Source of the DNA: an uncultured Bacilli bacterium
GTDB taxonomy: Bacteria > Bacillota_I > Bacilli_A > RF39 > UBA660
DNA: 64,000 bases
Direction of reading: 5' to 3'
Assembly (NCBI GenBank): GCA_944332725.1
Contig: CALVKO010000001.1
Span: forward strand, 719 to 64,718
Part shown: positions 4,688-51,089 of the stretch, piece by piece
Numbering within the stretch: position 1 is the stretch's first letter
Layout: each line of letters opens with the position of its first letter
The notes under the pieces: model-generated
Told to the model about the DNA's origin: nothing
Seen by the model: only the letters and a program-made list of their open reading frames with translations
Databases searched by the model: none
Program-made: the position numbers and the translations under genes

Positions 4688-7147
4688 TTAAATATTTTCA
4701 GTATAATTACACCCTTTATCATAATTAGTACAGCCAATAAAATCATAATTTTTCTTTTTACTATGTTTGACAACTAAATAGCCATTACACTTTGGACATT
4801 TTTTAATTTCTTTTTTATATTTTAAATTATTAGTTTTAAAATTACATAATTCTTTATCATTAGTACAAACATATAAATTATTTATTTTAAAACTACTATA
4901 TTTTTTTACTAAAGGATATCCACATTTTGGACATCTTTGTGGTTTTTTAGATAATTTTATACCTGTTTTATTATATAAATATACATTATCATATTTAATT
5001 ATCTCTAAAATAAAATCCGATGGTTTATTAACTGGTGTTAAAATATAAACTTTATTTTTAGTTCTTGTTAAAGCAACATAAAATAATCTTCTTTCTTCTG
5101 CATAAACATAAGAGTTATCAGACACATTAATAATTTTCATAATAGGATCGTCTTTTATTTGTGATGGAAATCCGTAAGTTCCATCATCCCCATTTAATAT
5201 AATTACTTGGTCATATCCTAACCCTTTAGAAGAATGTGCCGACAAAAAATCAATATCAAAATTAGGAAATTTTTTAGATTTTATTTTATCATTACTTATT
5301 TCATAAAAGTCTTCACTTAAAAGTAAAAAATATTTTTCAAAATTATATCGTCCAATAAATAATATTTTTTGCTTATTACCATATTTGTTTTCTATATCTT
5401 TTAAACATTTATTTAACATAGCAATTTTGTTTTTCAACTTGCTATTAGTGTCATCATACGCTATTACCATTACTGGATTTTTAAGTTTTTTTGGAGATAT
5501 TAATTGCTTTTTAAACTGTTTTTTATTAGTCATAACAAATCTACCAGCGATATTTATTAATTGTTGACTATTACGATAAGTATGAGTAATTTTAAGTAAA
5601 GAAGCATAGCCCATCAATTGTTCAAATTCAGTAAATAAAGATATATCACTACCAGCAAATGCAAAAATACTTTGAAAATCATCACCGACAGCAATTATCT
5701 TAGCATCACTTACTTCACTTATTTTTTTAGTTAAATTAAATCGTTGCATTGATATATCTTGATATTCATCGATAATTACATATTTATAATTTAATTTTGT
5801 ATCATCTAATTTATAATATGCTTGATTTATCATATCTTCAAAATCAATATAATTATGTATTTTTAACTGTTCTTGATAATAATCATACACCCCTTCAACA
5901 AAGTTTAAAAACAAATTAGTTCGCTCATCACTATAAATATATTTTAATTTAGCAAAATCTTCTTTTGTATATCCTTTTATTTTAAATCCTTGAATAAATT
6001 TTAAACAAAATATAATAAATCTAGCATAATAAACATCTTTCGATGTCTCAACTAATTTTGTATATATTTCATAATCATTTTTCGGTTTTAAAATAATGTT
6101 ATGTTTTAATAATTGTTCTTTTAAATCATTTAATAAATCTTTAGTCGAATAAGTTTCAATTAAGGTTGTATTATTTAATTTATGAATTTTTCTTTTATTA
6201 TTAATTTGATATTTATATTTTAAACTATTTACATAACCATATAATTTGTTATAACCTTTTTTATCTAAACTATAATGTTCTAAATAAAAAACTCTTTCTC
6301 CCTGATAAATAGTAAAATCCGGTAAATAAGTTTTACTTTTGTCTAACTTAGGGTATGGTTTTTCATATTCATAATCTATATTATTTAAATATAAAAAATT
6401 AGCTATCATAACTTCTTCATTTGACTTTAAAAATTCCCCTAAAATAGTATATCTTTTATTAGTTCTATCATCGATTACTTGTTTATTATAATCATTTAAT
6501 CTTGATTTTAATGTTATATAATCAGTTCTTTTCTTATAATTAAAATAGTCATTTAAACTATTGAAATTTAAAGCAAAAGCAGGTATATCAAAATAAAACA
6601 CAAAAAATCTTAAAAATTCTTTTAATTTTTTATTATCATTACATAATTCTTTATCAAAATAATCTTTAACTAAATTATAAGAACTAGTTAATACTTTTAA
6701 ATGTTCATCGGTATTATTTTTTAATATTTCTACACCAAATTTATGAAATGTACAAACTAAAGCTGGTATTTTAAAATCTTTATTAATTCTTTGCTTTAAT
6801 TCAGATACCGCTTTATTAGTATAAGAAATCAATATTATATCTTTAGGATCAATTTTTTTTATATCAACTAAAAATTTAACTTTAGCAGCCATAGTTGTTG
6901 TTTTACCAGCACCTGCTCCTGCTATAATTAAATTATAATCTTCATCGGTTAATATTGCTATTCTCTGCTCTTCATCTAAAATAATATTATTATCGATTCC
7001 TTTATACATATTATCAAAATAATCCTTATACTTAACTAATGCTTCTTTAATATAATTTTCATTATGTATTTTTACTTTATCATAATCTAAATTATATTTT
7101 TTTATATTCTTTATTGATATATATTCAAAAGGCATAATAATCACCAA
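4688..7147 (-). CDS. UvrD/Rep-like superfamily-1 DNA helicase with an internal insert domain and two C-terminal topoisomerase-type C4 zinc ribbons.
   Basis: Helicase motif I AGAGAGKTTTM, motif II VIIDEYQD, and FPSQIKDD...VALTRTK C-terminal helicase motifs. A ~250-aa insert contains YLPDFTIY...YLEH (REase-like). The C-terminus has CPKCGYPL...C and CPKCNGYL...C zinc ribbons. The annotated start is TTG at 7147; the ATG at 7135 preceded by a GGTGA RBS is the more likely start. Confidence 0.75.
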   Translation of the reverse strand: MVIIMPFEYISIKNIKKYNLDYDKVKIHNENYIKEALVKYKDYFDNMYKGIDNNIILDEEQRIAILTDEDYNLIIAGAGAGKTTTMAAKVKFLVDIKKIDPKDIILISYTNKAVSELKQRINKDFKIPALVCTFHKFGVEILKNNTDEHLKVLTSSYNLVKDYFDKELCNDNKKLKEFLRFFVFYFDIPAFALNFNSLNDYFNYKKRTDYITLKSRLNDYNKQVIDDRTNKRYTILGEFLKSNEEVMIANFLYLNNIDYEYEKPYPKLDKSKTYLPDFTIYQGERVFYLEHYSLDKKGYNKLYGYVNSLKYKYQINNKRKIHKLNNTTLIETYSTKDLLNDLKEQLLKHNIILKPKNDYEIYTKLVETSKDVYYARFIIFCLKFIQGFKIKGYTKEDFAKLKYIYSDERTNLFLNFVEGVYDYYQEQLKIHNYIDFEDMINQAYYKLDDTKLNYKYVIIDEYQDISMQRFNLTKKISEVSDAKIIAVGDDFQSIFAFAGSDISLFTEFEQLMGYASLLKITHTYRNSQQLINIAGRFVMTNKKQFKKQLISPKKLKNPVMVIAYDDTNSKLKNKIAMLNKCLKDIENKYGNKQKILFIGRYNFEKYFLLLSEDFYEISNDKIKSKKFPNFDIDFLSAHSSKGLGYDQVIILNGDDGTYGFPSQIKDDPIMKIINVSDNSYVYAEERRLFYVALTRTKNKVYILTPVNKPSDFILEIIKYDNVYLYNKTGIKLSKKPQRCPKCGYPLVKKYSSFKINNLYVCTNDKELCNFKTNNLKYKKEIKKCPKCNGYLVVKHSKKKNYDFIGCTNYDKGCNYTENI

Positions 7148-7189
7148 AATTATTATATATTAAATGGTTTAAAAAATCAAAACAAATAA

Positions 7190-7265
7190 AAAAATGCACA
7201 ATATTTTCAAAATACTGCGCATTTTTATGTTTTTGAAGTTCCATTTTGCACAATCATTGTGCATT
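7190..7265. promoter_or_regulatory. Operator/promoter module, copy 1, upstream of the helicase gene. It contains a perfect palindrome TGCACAATCATTGTGCA and an imperfect palindrome TGCACAATATTTTCAAAATACTGCGCA.
   Basis: Inverted repeats are visible directly. A ~40-bp block plus a ~20-bp block are repeated almost identically at 8390-8460. Confidence 0.5.
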
Positions 7266-7267
7266 TT

Positions 7268-8350
7268 TTAATTTTTTCCAACAAAAACGTCATATATTTC
7301 TTTATATCGATATCCTAACTTAGCATGAGTTGAATCACTTACTATAATACCTAAATTAATTAATTGATCAATTAAAATGGATATTGTATTTCTTGATACT
7401 CCTGTTTCTTCTTCGATTTCCTTTTTTGTAAATACAATTTGATGCATCATAGCAGGCATTATTCGATAAACAGCATTACTATTTAAAGTCTTAATTTTCT
7501 CCATATCTTTTTTATAGATTTTGTTAATCATATTTATTTTAGCAATATAATTATTACATTGTTCAATTATACATTGTAAGAAAAATTTTATAAAACCAAC
7601 AATATTACCTTTTCTACTTTCATTTAAAAATTTATGATAGCTAGGTTTATATAATTCTAAAACTTCTGACAAGAAAAGAATAGGCTCATCTTCAGTTAAT
7701 TTAGCTAATTGAATAGATATCAAAGCACGACCTAATCTTCCATTTCCATCTCGATATGCATGAATAGTTTCAAATTGATAATGTGATATTGCAAGATTAA
7801 TAAAAATAGGATCTATAAAATTATTATTCATGTATTTAAACAAATTATTAAGTAGAATTGGAACATCTTCTGGAATTGGCGGTACAAAAATTGCTTCATT
7901 GATACTACAACCTGTTGGTCCAATCCAATTTTGAATAGTTCTTATCTTGCCTGGTTCTTTTTCATTTCCTCTTACACTATCTAATAAAATTTTATGGATA
8001 GCATTAACAAAATGAATATTTATATCGTTATTTTCAACTAAATAATCTTTTGCATACTCTATAACTTTTTTTAAATTTTGTATTTCCAAATTATCATCTG
8101 TTTTAGGCATGTACTTTAAATAATACATTTCATCTTGTGAAATTTGTGTCCCTTCTATTTGTGTAGATTTTAAACTTTCACTTAATATAATAGAATCTAA
8201 AAAATATTTTGAATCAAATTCAACATTTCTTAAATATGACTTATATTCACCGTATTTATAATTTGCTTCAGCTATTAAATTTAAAAGTTCTTTATCTATA
8301 TTATATTCGATTGGTAATTCTTTAACTTTCATTGGATTCATCTTTATCAC
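7268..8350 (-). CDS. Fic family protein (Fido domain, probable AMPylase) with a C-terminal winged HTH.
   Basis: Canonical Fic motif HAYRDGNGRLGRAL (HxFx(D/E)GNGR). Confidence 0.85.
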   Translation of the reverse strand: MIKMNPMKVKELPIEYNIDKELLNLIAEANYKYGEYKSYLRNVEFDSKYFLDSIILSESLKSTQIEGTQISQDEMYYLKYMPKTDDNLEIQNLKKVIEYAKDYLVENNDINIHFVNAIHKILLDSVRGNEKEPGKIRTIQNWIGPTGCSINEAIFVPPIPEDVPILLNNLFKYMNNNFIDPIFINLAISHYQFETIHAYRDGNGRLGRALISIQLAKLTEDEPILFLSEVLELYKPSYHKFLNESRKGNIVGFIKFFLQCIIEQCNNYIAKINMINKIYKKDMEKIKTLNSNAVYRIMPAMMHQIVFTKKEIEEETGVSRNTISILIDQLINLGIIVSDSTHAKLGYRYKEIYDVFVGKN

Positions 8351-8389
8351 CTAAACTAATAATAACATATAAATGGTTACTTGTAAACG

Positions 8390-8460
8390 CAAAAATGCAC
8401 AATATTTTTAAAATACTGCACATTTTTTATACTCTACTTTGCACAATCATTATACATTCT
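8390..8460. promoter_or_regulatory. Operator/promoter module, copy 2, upstream of the Fic gene. It is a direct repeat of 7190-7265.
   Basis: AAAAATGCACAATATTTTTAAAATACTGCACATTTTTTAT...TTTGCACAATCATTATACATT matches copy 1 at roughly 37 of 39 positions in the first block. A -35/-10 pair (TTTACA-17-TATTAT) and an AGGTGA RBS follow. Confidence 0.5.
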
Positions 8461-8977
8461 TAAAATAAATGTTATTTTCTTTTTCATATCCTAAATTAGT
8501 TATTTCACCATGCCCCGGATATAATGTTATATCATTTGGATATTTTTTTATTTTATTAATTGACTTAAACATGTCAAATTCATCACTATTATCTAAGTCA
8601 ACTCTTCCTATTGAATCTTTAAATATAAAATCACCAACAAACATTATTTTTTCTTTTTCAAAATAAATTGTTATACAAGTATTATCATGGCCTTTAGTAT
8701 GAATAACTTTAAACTTAAAATTATTTATACTATATTCATTTTCATCTAATTTATAATCGTAGACTTTTATATTGTATTTTTTTATTAATTCATTTAAAGC
8801 ACCAATATGATCAAAATGATAATGAGTAATAATAATTCCAACTGGTTTTAAATTACCAATTTTATTTATTATTTTATCTATTTCATCACCCGGATCAATT
8901 ATTAAACACTCATTTTCAATACTTACAATATAACAATTTGTTTCTAAATATCCCACTTTAACTTTATCTATTTTCAT
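8450..8977 (-). CDS. MBL-fold metallo-hydrolase.
   Basis: THYHFDHIG (HxHxDH) zinc-binding motif. Size is ~175 aa. Confidence 0.8.
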   Translation of the reverse strand: MKIDKVKVGYLETNCYIVSIENECLIIDPGDEIDKIINKIGNLKPVGIIITHYHFDHIGALNELIKKYNIKVYDYKLDENEYSINNFKFKVIHTKGHDNTCITIYFEKEKIMFVGDFIFKDSIGRVDLDNSDEFDMFKSINKIKKYPNDITLYPGHGEITNLGYEKENNIYFKNV

Positions 8978-11150: not shown

Positions 11151-11922
11151 TTAGTTATTTTCTAATATTTTTTCAACTTCACTAATTAATTCTTCTTTAT
11201 TTGGAATATAATATGTGTATGTTGAAGCAAATATATTATTAGATAATCCACCTAAAGCATATTCCATAGTTACACCTTTTTTACCAGTACAAAGAATAAT
11301 TCCTACTGTTTCATTATCAAATTCATCTTTAATTTCTTTATTATAATAATTAACATACATATTCATTTGCCCTGCATATTCTAGTTTCATATCATCCATT
11401 TTTAAATCTATTAAAACATATGATCTTAATATCTTATTATAAAAGCAAAGGCCAACATAATAATGTGTATAATGATGAATCAATTTGTCTTTTTAATTCT
11501 CTTTTAGACCATTTAGAATTAATGCACTCTTTTTCATAAAATTTTCTTTCATCATCATCTTCAATATAAATTAAATAACAATAATGACTCCAACTCAAAT
11601 TTCCAGCCAGTGGTTGGAAATTTTTGTACCTAATATAAAATAGTCTCATATTATATAAACCAGATAAACTAAATCCTGTTCCAAATTTATTAGTTAATTT
11701 TTTAGATAATTTTTTTAATACATCTTTTCCATAATCTGCTCTAATATTTCCGTTTTGTTCATTTTCCACAATAATTTTACCAATCATAAAATTTGTTTCA
11801 ATTAAAGTATTATTTATTTGATAAACCATTTTGGTTTTATTTTCAGTAATTACATTTGATATTTGATTATATATATTAGTTATTATTTTATCACTATTTT
11901 TTTCTACTACATTTGTTTGCAT
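11151..11922 (-). pseudogene. YhcG/DUF1016 PD-(D/E)xK nuclease family gene, decayed by an internal deletion plus frameshift.
   Basis: Two overlapping ORFs (11437-11922 and 11151-11483) align to the N- and C-terminal thirds of the intact paralogs at 36364-37398 and 47327-48382 (LSWSHY..., IDLK..., YVNYY..., GILL... blocks). The central block around the GFxFxGxQ motif, which contains motifs essential for the nuclease fold, is absent. Confidence 0.7.
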
Positions 11923-50039: not shown

Positions 50040-51089
50040 TCAGAGCGAGACGGCGAAGCCGTAGCTGAGGGCGCCGACGTCATGGACATCCCACGCGAGA
50101 TCAGGAATAGACACAACACTCAAGTTTGCTGGTGTTTTTGTCCAATAACCTTTACCTGCGTTACTATCTCCTGTGGTTTCTAAATTTATTGCTGCCCATT
50201 CTGGCAGTATATACTTTTCTCCTCCTGCTGCTATTATTGCTTCTCGACATTCGCTTCCACTACTACAATTCATTACACTTTCATTTGATTGCAAAAATCC
50301 ATAAAAATCTGTAAAATATTTACTTTCCCAATTCGATGTCTCTCCGCTTGACTCTAATTCTTTGTAATATTCTGTTAACTTCAATATTTCTTCGGCTTCT
50401 GGTAAATATTTCTTTGTTACTTTGTTCCAACTACTTGTTCTTTCATTCATTGCTGCTAGGGCTGTTATTGGGCCAAATTCATATAAATTTTGATTTTTTA
50501 CTTCATCTGAATCACTAGCCCAATTTCCTCCAGCACTGCTATAATCACGTATACTTATCCACGCTACTGTTCCTCCTGGTAAATTTCTATCTAATATTCC
50601 TACTATTTCATCACCATTTACTTCTAATACATAGATATTTTGGGTTTCACTATCACTTACTTGAACTTTTAATAAATCTCCTACTGCATATTTTGCTTCA
50701 GGTTTTTCTAAATCTCCTTCTACCATTGCATTATCTTGTAAACTATATGTATGACCATTACTTTCTACTTTTAGCCAAGTTAATTTATCGCTATATTCAA
50801 TTTCTAATACTTCAGCATTTCCTAAGTTTACCATTGTTGGTACATTTTCTTTTGTCATACTTGATGTACATATTCTAGTATAATTATTATCCAATTGATA
50901 TTTTACATCCTCTGTTGCACAATAGTTATTTATTCCACTATATATCATATTTGCCTCGGATAATCCTGCACTCTTTCTTGCATCTTCTACTACATCTAAT
51001 ATTATAGGTGTGGCAATAAGGGCTACTATTGCCAAAATGATAATAACTGCTAATAACTCAATTAGCGTAAAACCACGTTTTAAATTCAT
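50040..51089 (-). CDS. Type IV pilin / pseudopilin (large, 349 aa) with a canonical prepilin N-terminus.
   Basis: MNLKRGFTLIELLAVIIILAIVALIA prepilin cleavage/methylation motif (G|FTLIE). An AAGGAGG RBS is present. The last ~30 codons are GC-rich. Confidence 0.8.
   Translation of the reverse strand: MNLKRGFTLIELLAVIIILAIVALIATPIILDVVEDARKSAGLSEANMIYSGINNYCATEDVKYQLDNNYTRICTSSMTKENVPTMVNLGNAEVLEIEYSDKLTWLKVESNGHTYSLQDNAMVEGDLEKPEAKYAVGDLLKVQVSDSETQNIYVLEVNGDEIVGILDRNLPGGTVAWISIRDYSSAGGNWASDSDEVKNQNLYEFGPITALAAMNERTSSWNKVTKKYLPEAEEILKLTEYYKELESSGETSNWESKYFTDFYGFLQSNESVMNCSSGSECREAIIAAGGEKYILPEWAAINLETTGDSNAGKGYWTKTPANLSVVSIPDLAWDVHDVGALSYGFAVSL

What the first reader, a model, noticed from the sequence alone, without database searches (positions are those of the whole stretch)
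7186..8462. A duplicated ~75-bp palindromic operator module upstream of both a Fic gene and an adjacent UvrD-like helicase gene
The block AAAAATGCACAATATTTT(C/T)AAAATACTGC(G/A)CATTTTT(T)AT plus TTTGCACAATCATT(G/A)T(G/A)CATT occurs upstream of the helicase (7190-7265) and again upstream of Fic (8390-8460). Copy 1 contains the perfect 17-bp palindrome TGCACAATCATTGTGCA, a typical dimeric repressor site. Both genes also carry their own TTGNNN-17-TATAAT-like core promoters downstream of the module. This implies co-regulation of a Fic AMPylase and an SF1 helicase by one DNA-binding factor, or a transposed regulatory cassette. The palindrome is not a Bacillus-type LexA box (CGAACN4GTTCG).
Basis: seen in the sequence. 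Interest (0 to 1): 0.6.

Follow-up and report, generated by a model that had tools for sequence, protein, structure and literature searches.

The report
Repeat element bracketing a mobile Fic gene
The duplicated 75-bp block is real, but rather than a switch shared by the Fic and helicase genes it is a conserved, portable ~80-bp "bracket" (terminator hairpin plus protein-site-like palindromes) that flanks a movable anti-phage Fic gene, and some other small gene cassettes, in many uncultured gut bacteria.

Summary
Two direct copies of an ~80-bp module (7186-7271 and 8387-8464) flank the Fic gene, and chance does not explain them.

All genes here are on the minus strand. On that strand each module reads: upstream stop codon, 17-bp palindrome TGCACAATSATTGTGCA, ~25-nt variable spacer, 37-bp palindrome A5-TGCACARTATTTT-N-AAAATATTGTGCA-T5, then the next gene's own promoter.

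The same module occurs in more than 100 public loci from about 50 low-GC uncultured gut Bacilli/"Tenericutes" species, at 1-3 copies per genome, and in a few phage contigs.

The Fic protein is a full-length SoFic-type anti-phage protein. Sibling species have MBL-module-helicase without Fic. More distant relatives have no module at all, only an ordinary terminator or a 14-nt operon junction. In another species, strain-level alleles (solo module, Fic, ORFan cargo) break exactly at the module edges.

So the helicase link is incidental.

Best reading: a portable cassette bracket. The long palindrome is an intrinsic terminator. The four TGCACAAT arms are probably sites for the Fic protein's own wHTH domain, by analogy with CccR and SoFic autoregulation. 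The repeats are the breakpoints of cassette gain and loss. No recombinase was found.

The parts
7186..7271 (-). Module copy B, downstream of the Fic stop codon and upstream of the helicase promoter. It contains the box, the spacer and the long palindrome.
   Evidence: nhmmer hit 7271-7186 on the minus strand, E = 4e-20, with a profile built from 47 modules. Alignment with empty and filled sites.
7247..7263 (.). Perfect 17-bp palindrome ('box'): TGCACAATGATTGTGCA on the minus strand. It starts 5 nt after the Fic stop codon.
   Evidence: The box lies at a fixed distance of ~25 nt from the long palindrome in most loci.
7190..7226 (-). 37-bp palindrome that forms a 17-pair hairpin followed by a T-run on the minus (coding) strand. 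Predicted intrinsic terminator of Fic.
   Evidence: Terminator scan hit. RNA fold of the minus strand: -31.3 kcal/mol, z = -3.95, against z = -2.68 for the plus strand. Its mismatches are G.U pairs on the minus strand only.
7152..7180 (-). The helicase's own promoter, TTGATT-17-TATAAT. It is homologous to the promoter of module-less relatives.
   Evidence: L081 has the same promoter behind an ordinary terminator.
4688..7135 (-). Helicase IV-like SF1 helicase with a C-terminal Top1-type zinc ribbon. It is a conserved chromosomal gene followed by a response regulator and histidine kinase, and is not part of the cassette.
   Evidence: Pfam and NCBIfam. Synteny in L005, L009, L055, L058 and L079-L084.
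7268..8341 (-). SoFic-type class II Fic gene, the cargo of the cassette. It has the catalytic motif HAYRDGNGRLGR, the inhibitory motif STQIEG and a C-terminal wHTH region.
   Evidence: PADLOC SoFic model, E = 4e-84 over residues 6-353. NCBIfam SoFic and PDB SoFic hits reaching residue 334. Pfam Fic_N plus Fic. Invariant residues in alignment A2.
8359..8387 (-). Fic promoter, TTTACA-17-(TG)TATTAT. It starts 3-8 nt after the upstream module and is conserved in 27 distinct Fic loci.
8387..8464 (-). Module copy A, between the MBL-fold gene and the Fic promoter. It has an 8-nt deletion in the spacer and a degenerate box.
   Evidence: nhmmer hit 8464-8387, E = 6e-13. Alignments.
8440..8456 (.). Degenerate box, TGTATAATGATTGTGCA on the minus strand. 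It contains the MBL stop codon.
   Evidence: In sibling species the MBL ORF ends ..KNAQ* at the central TGA of a perfect box.
8391..8427 (-). 37-bp palindrome of copy A. It forms a 17-pair hairpin (three G.U pairs) followed by T5 on the minus strand. Predicted terminator of the MBL operon that insulates Fic.
   Evidence: (minus strand -24.1 kcal/mol against -9.2 for the plus strand).
8450..8977 (-). MBL-fold hydrolase gene, the upstream neighbour. Its last codons were remodelled by the module.

Best explanation
The two blocks are direct copies of a conserved, portable ~80-bp module that brackets a mobile SoFic-type (Fic plus wHTH) anti-phage gene cassette. The helicase simply lies next to the cassette's 3' bracket.

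**Module layout (coding strand).** Box palindrome TGCACAATSATTGTGCA, then a ~25-nt spacer of variable sequence but fixed length, then the long palindrome A5-TGCACARTATTTT-N-AAAATATTGTGCA-T5.

**Shown.**
1. The unit 'Fic promoter + Fic + one module' is present or absent between sibling species and between strains. The breakpoints fall exactly at the module edges.
2. Other small ORFan genes are bracketed in the same way.
3. At the MBL-helicase junction the module occupies the position that an ordinary terminator holds in one group of module-less relatives (L081-L084).

**Inferred, strong.** The long palindrome works in the transcript as an intrinsic terminator. It insulates the toxic Fic gene from read-through and ends its mRNA. 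The box plus its T-run would do the same for antisense transcription.

**Inferred, moderate.** The four identical TGCACAAT arms are binding sites for the dimeric wHTH domain of the Fic protein itself, which would autoregulate the promoter that starts 5-8 nt after the module. This rests on analogy with CccR (two inverted 10-bp arms separated by 26 bp) and with SoFic binding its own promoter.

**Inferred, mechanism open.** Recombination between or at modules inserts and deletes cassettes. This could be homologous (Campbell-type) recombination or an unidentified site-specific enzyme.
For: **Distribution.**
- Exact-pattern scans found the long palindrome in 57 stretches from about 50 species genomes, 45 metagenome stretches and 5 viral stretches.
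- Of 76 distinct module sequences, 27 lie upstream of Fic, 16 lie downstream of Fic and 33 are solo or other. All have the same orientation relative to Fic.
- The box sits at a fixed ~25-nt distance from the long palindrome, while the spacer sequence varies.

**Insertion/deletion evidence.**
- MBL-module-helicase in L005, L009, L014, L055 and L058, against MBL-module-Fic-module-helicase in the window, L011 and L024.
- Strains with a 100% identical ABC ATPase carry four alleles: up263-M-ABC, up263-M-Fic-M-ABC, c117-M-ABC and c117-M-c177-M-c135-ABC. Flanks are 96-99% identical and homology breaks at the module edges.
- Contigs of ~1.2 kb consisting of Fic plus one module close on themselves.

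**Module-less ancestors.**: L079 has a 14-nt junction. L081 has the ordinary hairpin CTAATCTTGTTGATTAG-T6 in front of the same helicase promoter.

**Terminator.**
- Hairpin plus T-run on the coding strand.
- The box starts within about 25 nt after the upstream stop codon, or overlaps it, in most loci where the upstream gene is codirectional.
- In the 13-bp core stem, 47 G.U pairs fall on the sense strand against 9 on the antisense strand. There are three compensatory double changes (L010, and two in L050). A further T-A to C-G change in L006 was read by eye from the output.

**Fic identity.** PADLOC SoFic model, E = 4e-84.

**Operator analogy.**
- CccR footprint AGATAATCAT-N26-ATGATAATCT with autorepression (PMC9755527).
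- Dimeric SoFic binds its own promoter (bioRxiv 10.64898/2026.07.09.737422).
- Here ATTGTGCA-N25-TGCACAAT has similar geometry.
- The arm sequence is almost invariant while the spacer drifts, and compensatory changes are rare. This points to sequence-specific recognition rather than structure alone.
- The Fic promoter abuts the module in 27 loci.
Against: - No binding or termination data exist for this organism.
- The module ends upstream of the -35 hexamer, whereas the CccR operator overlaps -35/-10.
- Five species keep a well-conserved solo module at MBL-helicase, and no second exact-pattern module was found in their assemblies. These are incomplete MAGs, and whether they carry a Fic gene elsewhere was not checked. 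If they lack Fic, a factor other than Fic, or repeated re-insertion, is needed to explain that conservation.
- Phage contigs carry the long palindrome without Fic. In some it has no T-run and lies 20 nt before a gene, which neither the terminator role nor the Fic operator role explains.
- About half of the Fic genes have an ordinary terminator downstream instead of a second module.
- The G.U asymmetry counts sequences, not independent events.
- No recombinase is recurrently linked to the module.
Confidence: 0.65

Rival explanations
1. The module is an operator through which a single repressor co-regulates Fic and the SF1 helicase as members of a shared regulon.
For: Both genes have a module upstream of their promoter. 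The palindromes look like sites for a dimeric protein. If the Fic wHTH domain binds the module, the neighbouring helicase promoter could be affected as a side effect.
Against: - Helicase orthologues at 73-84% identity have no module.
- Sibling species keep one module there without an adjacent Fic gene.
- Downstream genes elsewhere are unrelated (rubrerythrin-like, ABC ATPase, HtpG and others) or convergent.
- The spacing to -35 is not conserved between the two promoters.
- There are only 1-3 copies per genome and none elsewhere in the window.
Confidence: 0.08
2. The module is an att-type site of a dedicated site-specific recombination system. This would be an integron-like cassette platform in Bacillota. 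Circular cassettes (gene plus one module) would be integrated at, and excised from, resident modules by a trans-encoded recombinase that reads the TGCACAAT arms, possibly in folded single-stranded form.
For: - The unit of insertion/deletion is gene plus one module, and breakpoints fall at the module edges.
- Alternative cargos occupy one site, and arrays of the form M-cargo-M-cargo occur.
- The same 8-bp stem appears in both hairpins.
- The arm sequence is conserved while the spacer is not.
- Solo modules are conserved at loci with no adjacent Fic gene.
- Contigs of unit length close on themselves.
Against: - No recombinase gene recurs within 4-10 kb of modules.
- The one integrase fragment found (L028) belongs to an IS91-like element whose own loci lack modules.
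- Copy number per genome is very low.
- Cassettes carry their own promoters, unlike integron cassettes.
- The same patterns arise from homologous recombination between 80-bp repeats.
- The self-closing contigs can be collapsed repeats.
Confidence: 0.2
3. The module is a MITE-like non-autonomous transposable element with terminal inverted repeats AAAAATGCACAAT / ATTGTGCATTTTT. It inserts just after genes. Two copies flanking a gene would form a composite unit, and solo copies would be independent insertions or deletion scars.
For: - The outer ends of the module are inverted repeats (pair I3: 22 nt, 91% complementary).
- Homology between alleles ends exactly at these ends.
- Solo modules, or the hairpin alone, occur in many unrelated intergenic sites and in phage contigs of several types.
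- The MBL C-terminus was remodelled by the insertion.
Against: - No target-site duplication could be defined because the flanks are A/T runs.
- The 1-3 copies per genome are far below typical MITE numbers.
- No cognate transposase was identified.
- The internal repeats of the arm and the fixed spacer length are not explained.
Confidence: 0.12
4. The blocks are only ordinary terminators or a simple local duplication with no sequence-specific role. They look alike because of a recent tandem duplication in this genome.
For: Each long palindrome is a good terminator-like hairpin. The two copies flank a single gene.
Against: The same sequence is conserved in more than 100 loci from about 50 species and in phage contigs, in different genomic contexts. 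The arms are nearly invariant while the spacer and flanks diverge. Orthologous terminators would be expected to drift with compensatory changes, and only 3-4 such changes were seen.
Confidence: 0.02

Closest known systems
CccR / SoFic autoregulatory operators of wHTH-containing class II Fic proteins (PMC9755527; bioRxiv 10.64898/2026.07.09.737422)
   Same: The gene product has the same architecture: N-terminal helix, Fic domain and C-terminal wHTH. It matches the SoFic model over its full length. Identical inverted arms lie upstream of its own gene, and one pair is separated by ~25 bp, compared with 26 bp in the CccR operator.
   Different: There are four arms in two palindromes (spacings 1, 25 and 11 nt), not two. 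The module ends 5-8 nt upstream of -35 instead of overlapping -35/-10. A second copy lies downstream of the gene. The module also occurs without Fic. Binding is untested.
Integron gene cassettes and attC sites, including attC clusters and solo attC sites that lack an integrase (from general knowledge)
   Same: The unit of gain and loss is one gene plus one imperfectly palindromic ~60-140-bp site. Sites lie in direct orientation between cassettes. Alternative cargos occupy one locus. Solo sites exist.
   Different: There is no IntI-type integrase nearby. There is no R''/L''-L'/R' organisation or GTTRRRY core. The sequence (not only the structure) is conserved. Cassettes carry their own promoter. 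There are very few sites per genome. The host is low-GC Bacillota.
Intrinsic (Rho-independent) terminators, including bidirectional ones
   Same: A hairpin is followed by a T-run directly after stop codons. An A-tract upstream makes it symmetric. In one group of module-less relatives (L081-L084) an ordinary terminator occupies the same position. Substitutions are strand-specific and preserve G.U pairs.
   Different: The stem sequence is conserved across about 50 species and many contexts. The same 8-bp stem is repeated in a second small hairpin at a fixed distance. Ordinary terminators show neither feature.
CIRCE / HrcA-type inverted repeats (from general knowledge)
   Same: It is a long inverted repeat with a fixed spacer that could act both as a DNA operator and as an mRNA hairpin.
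   Different: The sequence is different (TTAGCACTC-N9-GAGTGCTAA against TGCACAAT-N11-ATTGTGCA). It is not linked to chaperone operons. It is an accessory, mobile element rather than a core regulon element.
MITE-flanked composite units and pdif (Xer) modules on plasmids (from general knowledge)
   Same: Short palindromic elements bracket single accessory genes and allow them to move between contexts without an element-encoded recombinase.
   Different: pdif sites are 11-6-11 XerC/D sites, usually in alternating orientation. MITEs are multicopy and have target duplications. Neither feature was found here.

Membership tests
SoFic-type class II Fic protein (anti-phage SoFic) | Fic catalytic motif HxFx(D/E)GNGRxxR | tested here: met
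   HAYRDGNGRLGR (Tyr in place of Phe). H194, Y196, R197, D198, G199, N200, G201, R202, G204 and R205 are invariant in 8 homologues. Pfam Fic hit, E = 3e-17.
SoFic-type class II Fic protein (anti-phage SoFic) | N-terminal inhibitory helix motif (S/T)xxxE(G/N) | tested here: met
   S59-T-Q-I-E63-G64 is invariant. Pfam Fic_N hit.
SoFic-type class II Fic protein (anti-phage SoFic) | Full-length match including the C-terminal wHTH domain | tested here: met
   PADLOC SoFic model, E = 4e-84, residues 6-353 against profile positions 11-358 of 361. PDB SoFic chains align over residues 143-334. Close homologues carry Pfam HTH_IclR or TrmB hits. The NCBIfam equivalog score (86.8) is below its cut-off of 550, so this is a relative, not an equivalog.
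SoFic-type class II Fic protein (anti-phage SoFic) | Protects against phage / AMPylates a target such as EF-Tu | not testable with these tools
   Known only from the literature for other members.
wHTH-Fic autoregulatory operator (CccR type) | Inverted repeats of one arm sequence upstream of the regulator's own gene | tested here: met
   Four TGCACAAT/ATTGTGCA arms lie 45-125 nt upstream of the Fic start codon in 27 distinct loci.
wHTH-Fic autoregulatory operator (CccR type) | Arms separated by about 26 bp, matching the widely spaced DNA-binding helices of the dimer | tested here: inconclusive
   ATTGTGCA-N25-TGCACAAT has a fixed spacer length and a variable spacer sequence. Pairs with 1-nt and 11-nt spacing also exist, and which pair (if any) is bound is unknown.
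wHTH-Fic autoregulatory operator (CccR type) | Operator overlaps the -35/-10 region | tested here: not met
   The module ends 5-8 nt upstream of the predicted -35 hexamer.
wHTH-Fic autoregulatory operator (CccR type) | Specific binding by the Fic protein and repression in vivo | not testable with these tools
   Needs EMSA or footprinting and reporter assays.
Intrinsic terminator | Stable hairpin followed by a U-run on the transcribed strand, just after a stop codon | tested here: met
   The distance from stop codon to box is within about 25 nt, or overlapping, in most loci with a codirectional upstream gene.
Intrinsic terminator | Selection for pairing on the RNA strand | tested here: met
   47 G.U pairs on the sense strand against 9 on the antisense strand, plus 3 compensatory changes in the core stem. 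The sequences are not phylogenetically independent.
Intrinsic terminator | Termination observed | not testable with these tools
   Needs Term-seq or in-vitro transcription.
Integron attC / cassette array | Integron integrase (IntI) and attI next to the array | tested here: not met
   No tyrosine recombinase recurs in the 3-15-kb loci held around modules. The L028 fragment is linked to an IS91-like element.
Integron attC / cassette array | R''-L''...L'-R' structure with a GTTRRRY core | tested here: not met
   The module consensus has no such core.
Integron attC / cassette array | Gene plus one site as the unit of insertion; alternative cargos at one locus | tested here: met
MITE | Terminal inverted repeats | tested here: met
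   AAAAATGCACAAT ... ATTGTGCATTTTT (pair I3).
MITE | Target-site duplication | tested here: inconclusive
   Occupied and empty MBL-helicase sites were compared. The flanks are A/T runs and the MBL C-terminus differs in length, so no duplication could be defined.
MITE | Many copies per genome | tested here: not met
   1-3 exact matches per species genome, including a complete 1.5-Mb chromosome (L044, OZ006970.1).
Rfam RNA families | Match to a curated covariance model | tested here: not met
   Only chance-level hits (E = 0.5-0.7, far below gathering scores).

The most novel reading that the evidence does not exclude
The module is the recombination site of a previously unrecognised, integrase-less (trans-acting) cassette-exchange system in reduced-genome gut Bacillota. 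The system would shuffle a SoFic defence gene and ORFan cargos between chromosomal landing pads and phages.

A related possibility is that the shared TGCACAAT palindrome in phages and at the defence gene couples Fic expression or activation to phage DNA or a phage factor. In that case the bracket would also act as an infection sensor.
Probability: 0.2. Interest if true: 0.85.

Novelty: new variant of a known kind. Interest (0 to 1): 0.62.

Why it matters
- SoFic is catalogued as a one-gene anti-phage system, and little is known about how this toxic enzyme is kept silent or how it spreads.
- This locus gives a defined ~80-bp element that travels with the gene. It is conserved in about 50 uncultured species and marks strain-level gain and loss.
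- It provides a concrete candidate operator for testing wHTH-Fic autoregulation outside Proteobacteria.
- It provides a natural insulated cassette, terminator-promoter-gene-terminator.
- It provides a tractable case of single-gene defence mobility with no recombinase in the cassette.
- If a dedicated recombination system reads the module, it would be an integron-like platform in a phylum where, to my knowledge, integrons are not known.

Tried and rejected
- **Rfam scan of the region.** Nothing above chance.
- **LexA, CodY, Fur/PerR, CIRCE and dif-like consensus sequences.** Compared by eye only and none fits. The central AATNATT resembles Fur-family 7-1-7 boxes, but the arms differ and the distribution is that of an accessory element.
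- **Search for a linked recombinase.** The Y1 transposase and IS21 genes near Fic in Ca. Onthousia are strain-variable IS insertions. The integrase N-terminus fused to a truncated Fic in L028 belongs to an IS91-like element (integrase plus Y2 transposase) whose own loci have no module.
- **Helicase as a defence partner (GajB-like hits).** Rejected because the helicase is a syntenic core gene in relatives with and without Fic.
- **Reaching distant Fic relatives to look for co-varying operators.**
  - The homologue search listed only hits of at least 78% identity.
  - The alignment-based viral scan found only hits of 79-81% identity.
  - Plasmid homologues at 28-36% identity do show repeated inverted arms upstream, for example ATGAAATTTCAT copies in [Eubacterium] eligens and TGTGATAC copies in Thermus. 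This is anecdotal in AT-rich DNA.
- **L047's third module.** It contains an assembly gap, so that 'ORF107 cassette' is treated as tentative.
- **L106's '51% Fic'.** It is a truncated remnant, not a divergent homologue.
- **Literature search for the motif.** Nothing relevant.
Full report
**1. What is in the window**

The window is very AT-rich (20-29% G+C). The genes around the finding all lie on the minus strand:
- an MBL-fold hydrolase (8450-8977);
- a Fic protein (7268-8341);
- a helicase IV-like SF1 helicase with a C-terminal zinc ribbon (4688-7135), followed by a response regulator and a histidine kinase.

The reported blocks are real (full numbers in the observation check).

On the coding (minus) strand each intergenic region has the same order:
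1. the stop codon of the previous gene;
2. a 17-bp palindrome, TGCACAATGATTGTGCA (the 'box');
3. about 25 nt of spacer;
4. a 37-bp palindrome, AAAAATGCRCAGTATTTT-N-AAAATATTGTGCATTTTT;
5. the next gene's own -35/-10 promoter, ribosome-binding site and start codon.

The two modules are therefore direct repeats that flank Fic. All four palindrome arms carry the same octamer, TGCACAAT.

**2. The long palindrome behaves like a terminator on the coding strand**

- The terminator scan flags 7226-7190 on the minus strand: 17 pairs followed by a T-run.
- As RNA, the minus strand of both intergenic regions folds into a 17-pair hairpin. The energies are -31.3 kcal/mol (z = -3.95) and -24.1 kcal/mol (z = -2.13). 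The plus strand folds markedly worse (-22.5 and -9.2 kcal/mol), because its mismatches are G.U pairs only on the minus strand.
- No Rfam family matches.

**3. The module is widespread and tied to Fic**

An exact-pattern scan for the long palindrome (transitions allowed at three positions per arm) found:
- 57 stretches in one-genome-per-species data, nearly all from uncultured low-GC Bacilli/'Tenericutes' MAGs such as Ca. Faecisoma, Ca. Onthousia and Clostridium sp. CAG:628;
- 45 stretches in metagenome contigs;
- 5 stretches in viral contigs.

Genomes carry one to three copies, including a complete 1.5-Mb chromosome (L044).

In most loci the 17-bp box lies at the same ~25-nt distance from the long palindrome. 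The spacer keeps its length but not its sequence.

A profile search collected 76 distinct modules: 27 directly upstream of a Fic homologue, 16 directly downstream and 33 solo or other. Orientation relative to Fic is always the same.

In 27 distinct loci the Fic promoter (TTTAC(A/T), 17-18 nt, extended -10 TGnTAnnnT) begins 5-8 nt after the module.

In most loci where the upstream gene is codirectional, the box begins within about 25 nt after its stop codon, or overlaps it.

**4. Fic is a SoFic-type defence gene**

- The protein matches the PADLOC SoFic model over its whole length (E = 4e-84).
- It aligns with solved SoFic structures into the C-terminal wHTH region.
- It has the catalytic motif HAYRDGNGRLGR and the class II inhibitory motif STQIEG.
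- SoFic-type proteins are reported as toxic, abortive-infection effectors (PMC12249575).

**5. The helicase link is incidental, and the module marks insertion/deletion breakpoints**

*Sibling species.* Five sibling species (helicase 85-96% identical) have MBL-module-helicase with no Fic. Two others, like the window, have MBL-module-Fic-module-helicase. The difference is exactly 'Fic promoter + Fic + one module'.

*Module copies.* In L011 the two copies are identical, including the spacer. In the window and L024 the left copy has the spacer type of the empty sites, and the right copy is a diverged variant.

*More distant relatives.* These have no module. In L079 the MBL stop codon and the helicase start codon are 14 nt apart. 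In L081-L084 an ordinary small terminator (CTAATCTTGTTGATTAG followed by T6) precedes the same helicase promoter. In L081-L084, therefore, an ordinary terminator holds the position the module occupies here. The module's arrival also remodelled the MBL C-terminus..YFKNAQ* ends at the central TGA of the box.

*A second, strain-level case.* Contigs with a 100% identical ABC ATPase and 96-99% identical flanks carry four alleles upstream of that gene:
- up263-M-ABC;
- up263-M-Fic-M-ABC;
- c117-M-ABC;
- c117-M-c177-M-c135(reverse)-ABC.

Homology breaks exactly at the left edge of the box or just after the hairpin's T-run.

*A third case.* At a locus upstream of a rubrerythrin-like gene, L038 and L043 carry a solo module, while L004, L028 and L034 carry Fic followed by a module.

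*Cargo other than Fic.*
- In Ca. Onthousia the bracket encloses Fic plus a 169-aa ORF, inside a variable island next to smpB.
- The non-Fic cargos have no significant Pfam match (the 186-aa ORF has one match below the gathering cut-off) and no PADLOC match.

*Short contigs.* Many metagenome contigs of ~1.2 kb consist of Fic plus one module and close on themselves. This is expected from identical flanking repeats or from circles.

*Variety of neighbours.* Genes flanking modules elsewhere are unrelated housekeeping genes, sometimes convergent.

*Variable second bracket.* About half of the Fic genes have an ordinary terminator instead of a second module.

**6. What constrains the sequence**

Across the 76 modules, the 13-bp core stem of the long palindrome has 47 G.U pairs on the coding strand against 9 on the other strand. 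It also has three compensatory double changes: one in L010 and two in L050. A further T-A to C-G change in L006 was read by eye from the output. This fits selection for an RNA hairpin on the coding strand. The counts are not phylogenetically independent.

Structure alone does not explain the rest:
- TGCAC is almost invariant in about 50 species, while the spacer and flanks drift.
- Compensatory changes are rare.
- The same 8-bp arm is used in a second small palindrome at a fixed distance. That palindrome shows uncompensated changes and no strand asymmetry (20 against 13).

This pattern points to sequence-specific recognition.

**7. Which factor?**

Published work gives a direct precedent:
- CccR is a Fic+wHTH protein structurally like SoFic. 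It represses its own promoter by binding two inverted 10-bp arms separated by 26 bp. The dimer's DNA-binding helices are about 70 Å apart (PMC9755527).
- Dimeric SoFic binds the 100 bp upstream of its own gene specifically (bioRxiv 10.64898/2026.07.09.737422).

In the module, ATTGTGCA-N25-TGCACAAT has that geometry, which would explain a spacer of fixed length and free sequence.

Distant plasmid-borne homologues also show repeated inverted arms upstream, but this is anecdotal.

Points against this reading:
- The module lies upstream of -35 rather than over the promoter.
- Solo modules stay conserved at loci with no adjacent Fic gene.
- Phage contigs of several types carry the long palindrome. 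These include collar/connector genes in L061, a scaffold gene in L063 and a phrog_20016 gene in L062 and L065. In some of them it has no T-run and lies 20 nt before a gene.

I therefore rate the Fic operator role as plausible (about 0.45), not established.

**8. How cassettes move**

The data fit recombination at or between modules. A circle of 'gene + module' integrating at a resident module, and the reverse deletion, give exactly the observed alleles.

Homologous recombination over about 80 bp and an unidentified site-specific enzyme predict the same products.

- No recombinase recurs near modules.
- The integrase fragment fused to a truncated Fic in L028 belongs to an IS91-like element whose own loci lack modules.
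- The module's outer ends are inverted repeats (pair I3), so a MITE-like origin is possible. However, copy number is low and no target duplication could be defined.

**9. Verdict**

The regulon reading (Fic and helicase under one repressor) is not supported. The block is a conserved, portable bracket of a mobile SoFic defence cassette. It combines an intrinsic terminator with protein-site-like palindromes, and it serves as the breakpoint of gene gain and loss.

Compared with known systems, it works like a terminator-insulated, probably autoregulated toxin gene, with integron-like cassette logic. It fails the defining tests for integron attC sites, for MITEs and for a CccR-type promoter-overlapping operator. 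I file it as a new variant of known kinds.

I found no description of this motif in the searched literature.

Noticed in passing
window 8450-8977 (minus); also L079-L084: The MBL-fold protein upstream of Fic carries weak or faint precomputed Pfam hits to Anti-Pycsar Apyc1 (PF23023) in addition to Lactamase_B. It is a syntenic core gene in the order RNase HII-DHH-(GNAT)-MBL-helicase-RR-HK, so it is probably a housekeeping relative rather than an anti-defence gene.
   Followed up: partly
window 11151-11922 (minus): Two overlapping ORFs (161 aa with DUF1016_N and 110 aa with YhcG_C) look like one PD-(D/E)XK-type YhcG/DUF1016 gene split by a frameshift. The same split is called in contigs L001 and L002.
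   Followed up: no
L113, L114, L116, L118, L124, L131, L134, L040, L104, L127 (upstream of an ABC ATPase): This is a strain-level hypervariable site in a Clostridium sp. CAG:628-like species. Four alleles occur (solo module, Fic, ORFan c177 plus c135, and a different upstream gene), with 96-99% identical flanks and breakpoints at the module edges.
   Followed up: yes
L062 10140-10216 (same as L064), L065 4169-4206, L021 5350-5426, L061 12863-12911, L063 965-1002: Phage or prophage contigs carry the long palindrome. L062 also has a degenerate box and a spacer like the MBL-type spacer. In L062, L065 and L021 the palindrome lacks a T-run and lies ~20 nt before a ~150-aa gene (phrog_20016 in L062 and L065), which follows a Gly-rich phrog_16490-like gene.
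   Followed up: partly
L028 2547-3749: A Fic gene truncated at residue ~97 is fused in frame to the N-terminal SAM-like domain of a tyrosine recombinase. Intact relatives of that recombinase sit next to IS91-type Zn_Tnp_IS91/Y2_Tnp genes (L137-L142), beside KAP NTPase and PemK toxin genes.
   Followed up: yes
L036 1469-1597; L040 5776-5821: The module shows micro-rearrangements. L036 has a tandem duplication of box plus spacer. L040 has a deletion of box plus spacer between short TTTTAAAAA repeats, which leaves a solo hairpin.
   Followed up: partly
L066-L075 (Ca. Onthousia, downstream of smpB): Here Fic plus a 169-aa ORFan lie between two modules, inside a variable island. The island carries a strain-variable IS200-like Y1 transposase, an IS21 element, a zeta-toxin-like kinase and a NUDIX gene.
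   Followed up: partly
L020, about 30-110 nt after the Fic stop codon (locus coordinates ~6100-6180, minus strand): Downstream of this Fic gene there is an ordinary terminator followed by a second copy of the Fic-type promoter (TTTACT-N17-TATGATAAAAT). In this locus the repeat flanking Fic is therefore the promoter rather than the module.
   Followed up: no
L091 367-474 ([Eubacterium] eligens plasmid) and L090 444-516 (Thermus plasmid): Distant Fic+wHTH homologues (28-32% identity) have several copies of a short inverted arm upstream: ATGAAATTTCAT-like in L091 and TGTGATAC/GTATCA in L090. These may be their own operators.
   Followed up: partly
window 50916-50923: This is the only TGCACAAT octamer in the window outside the two modules. 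It stands alone, with no partner arm, and is consistent with chance.
   Followed up: partly
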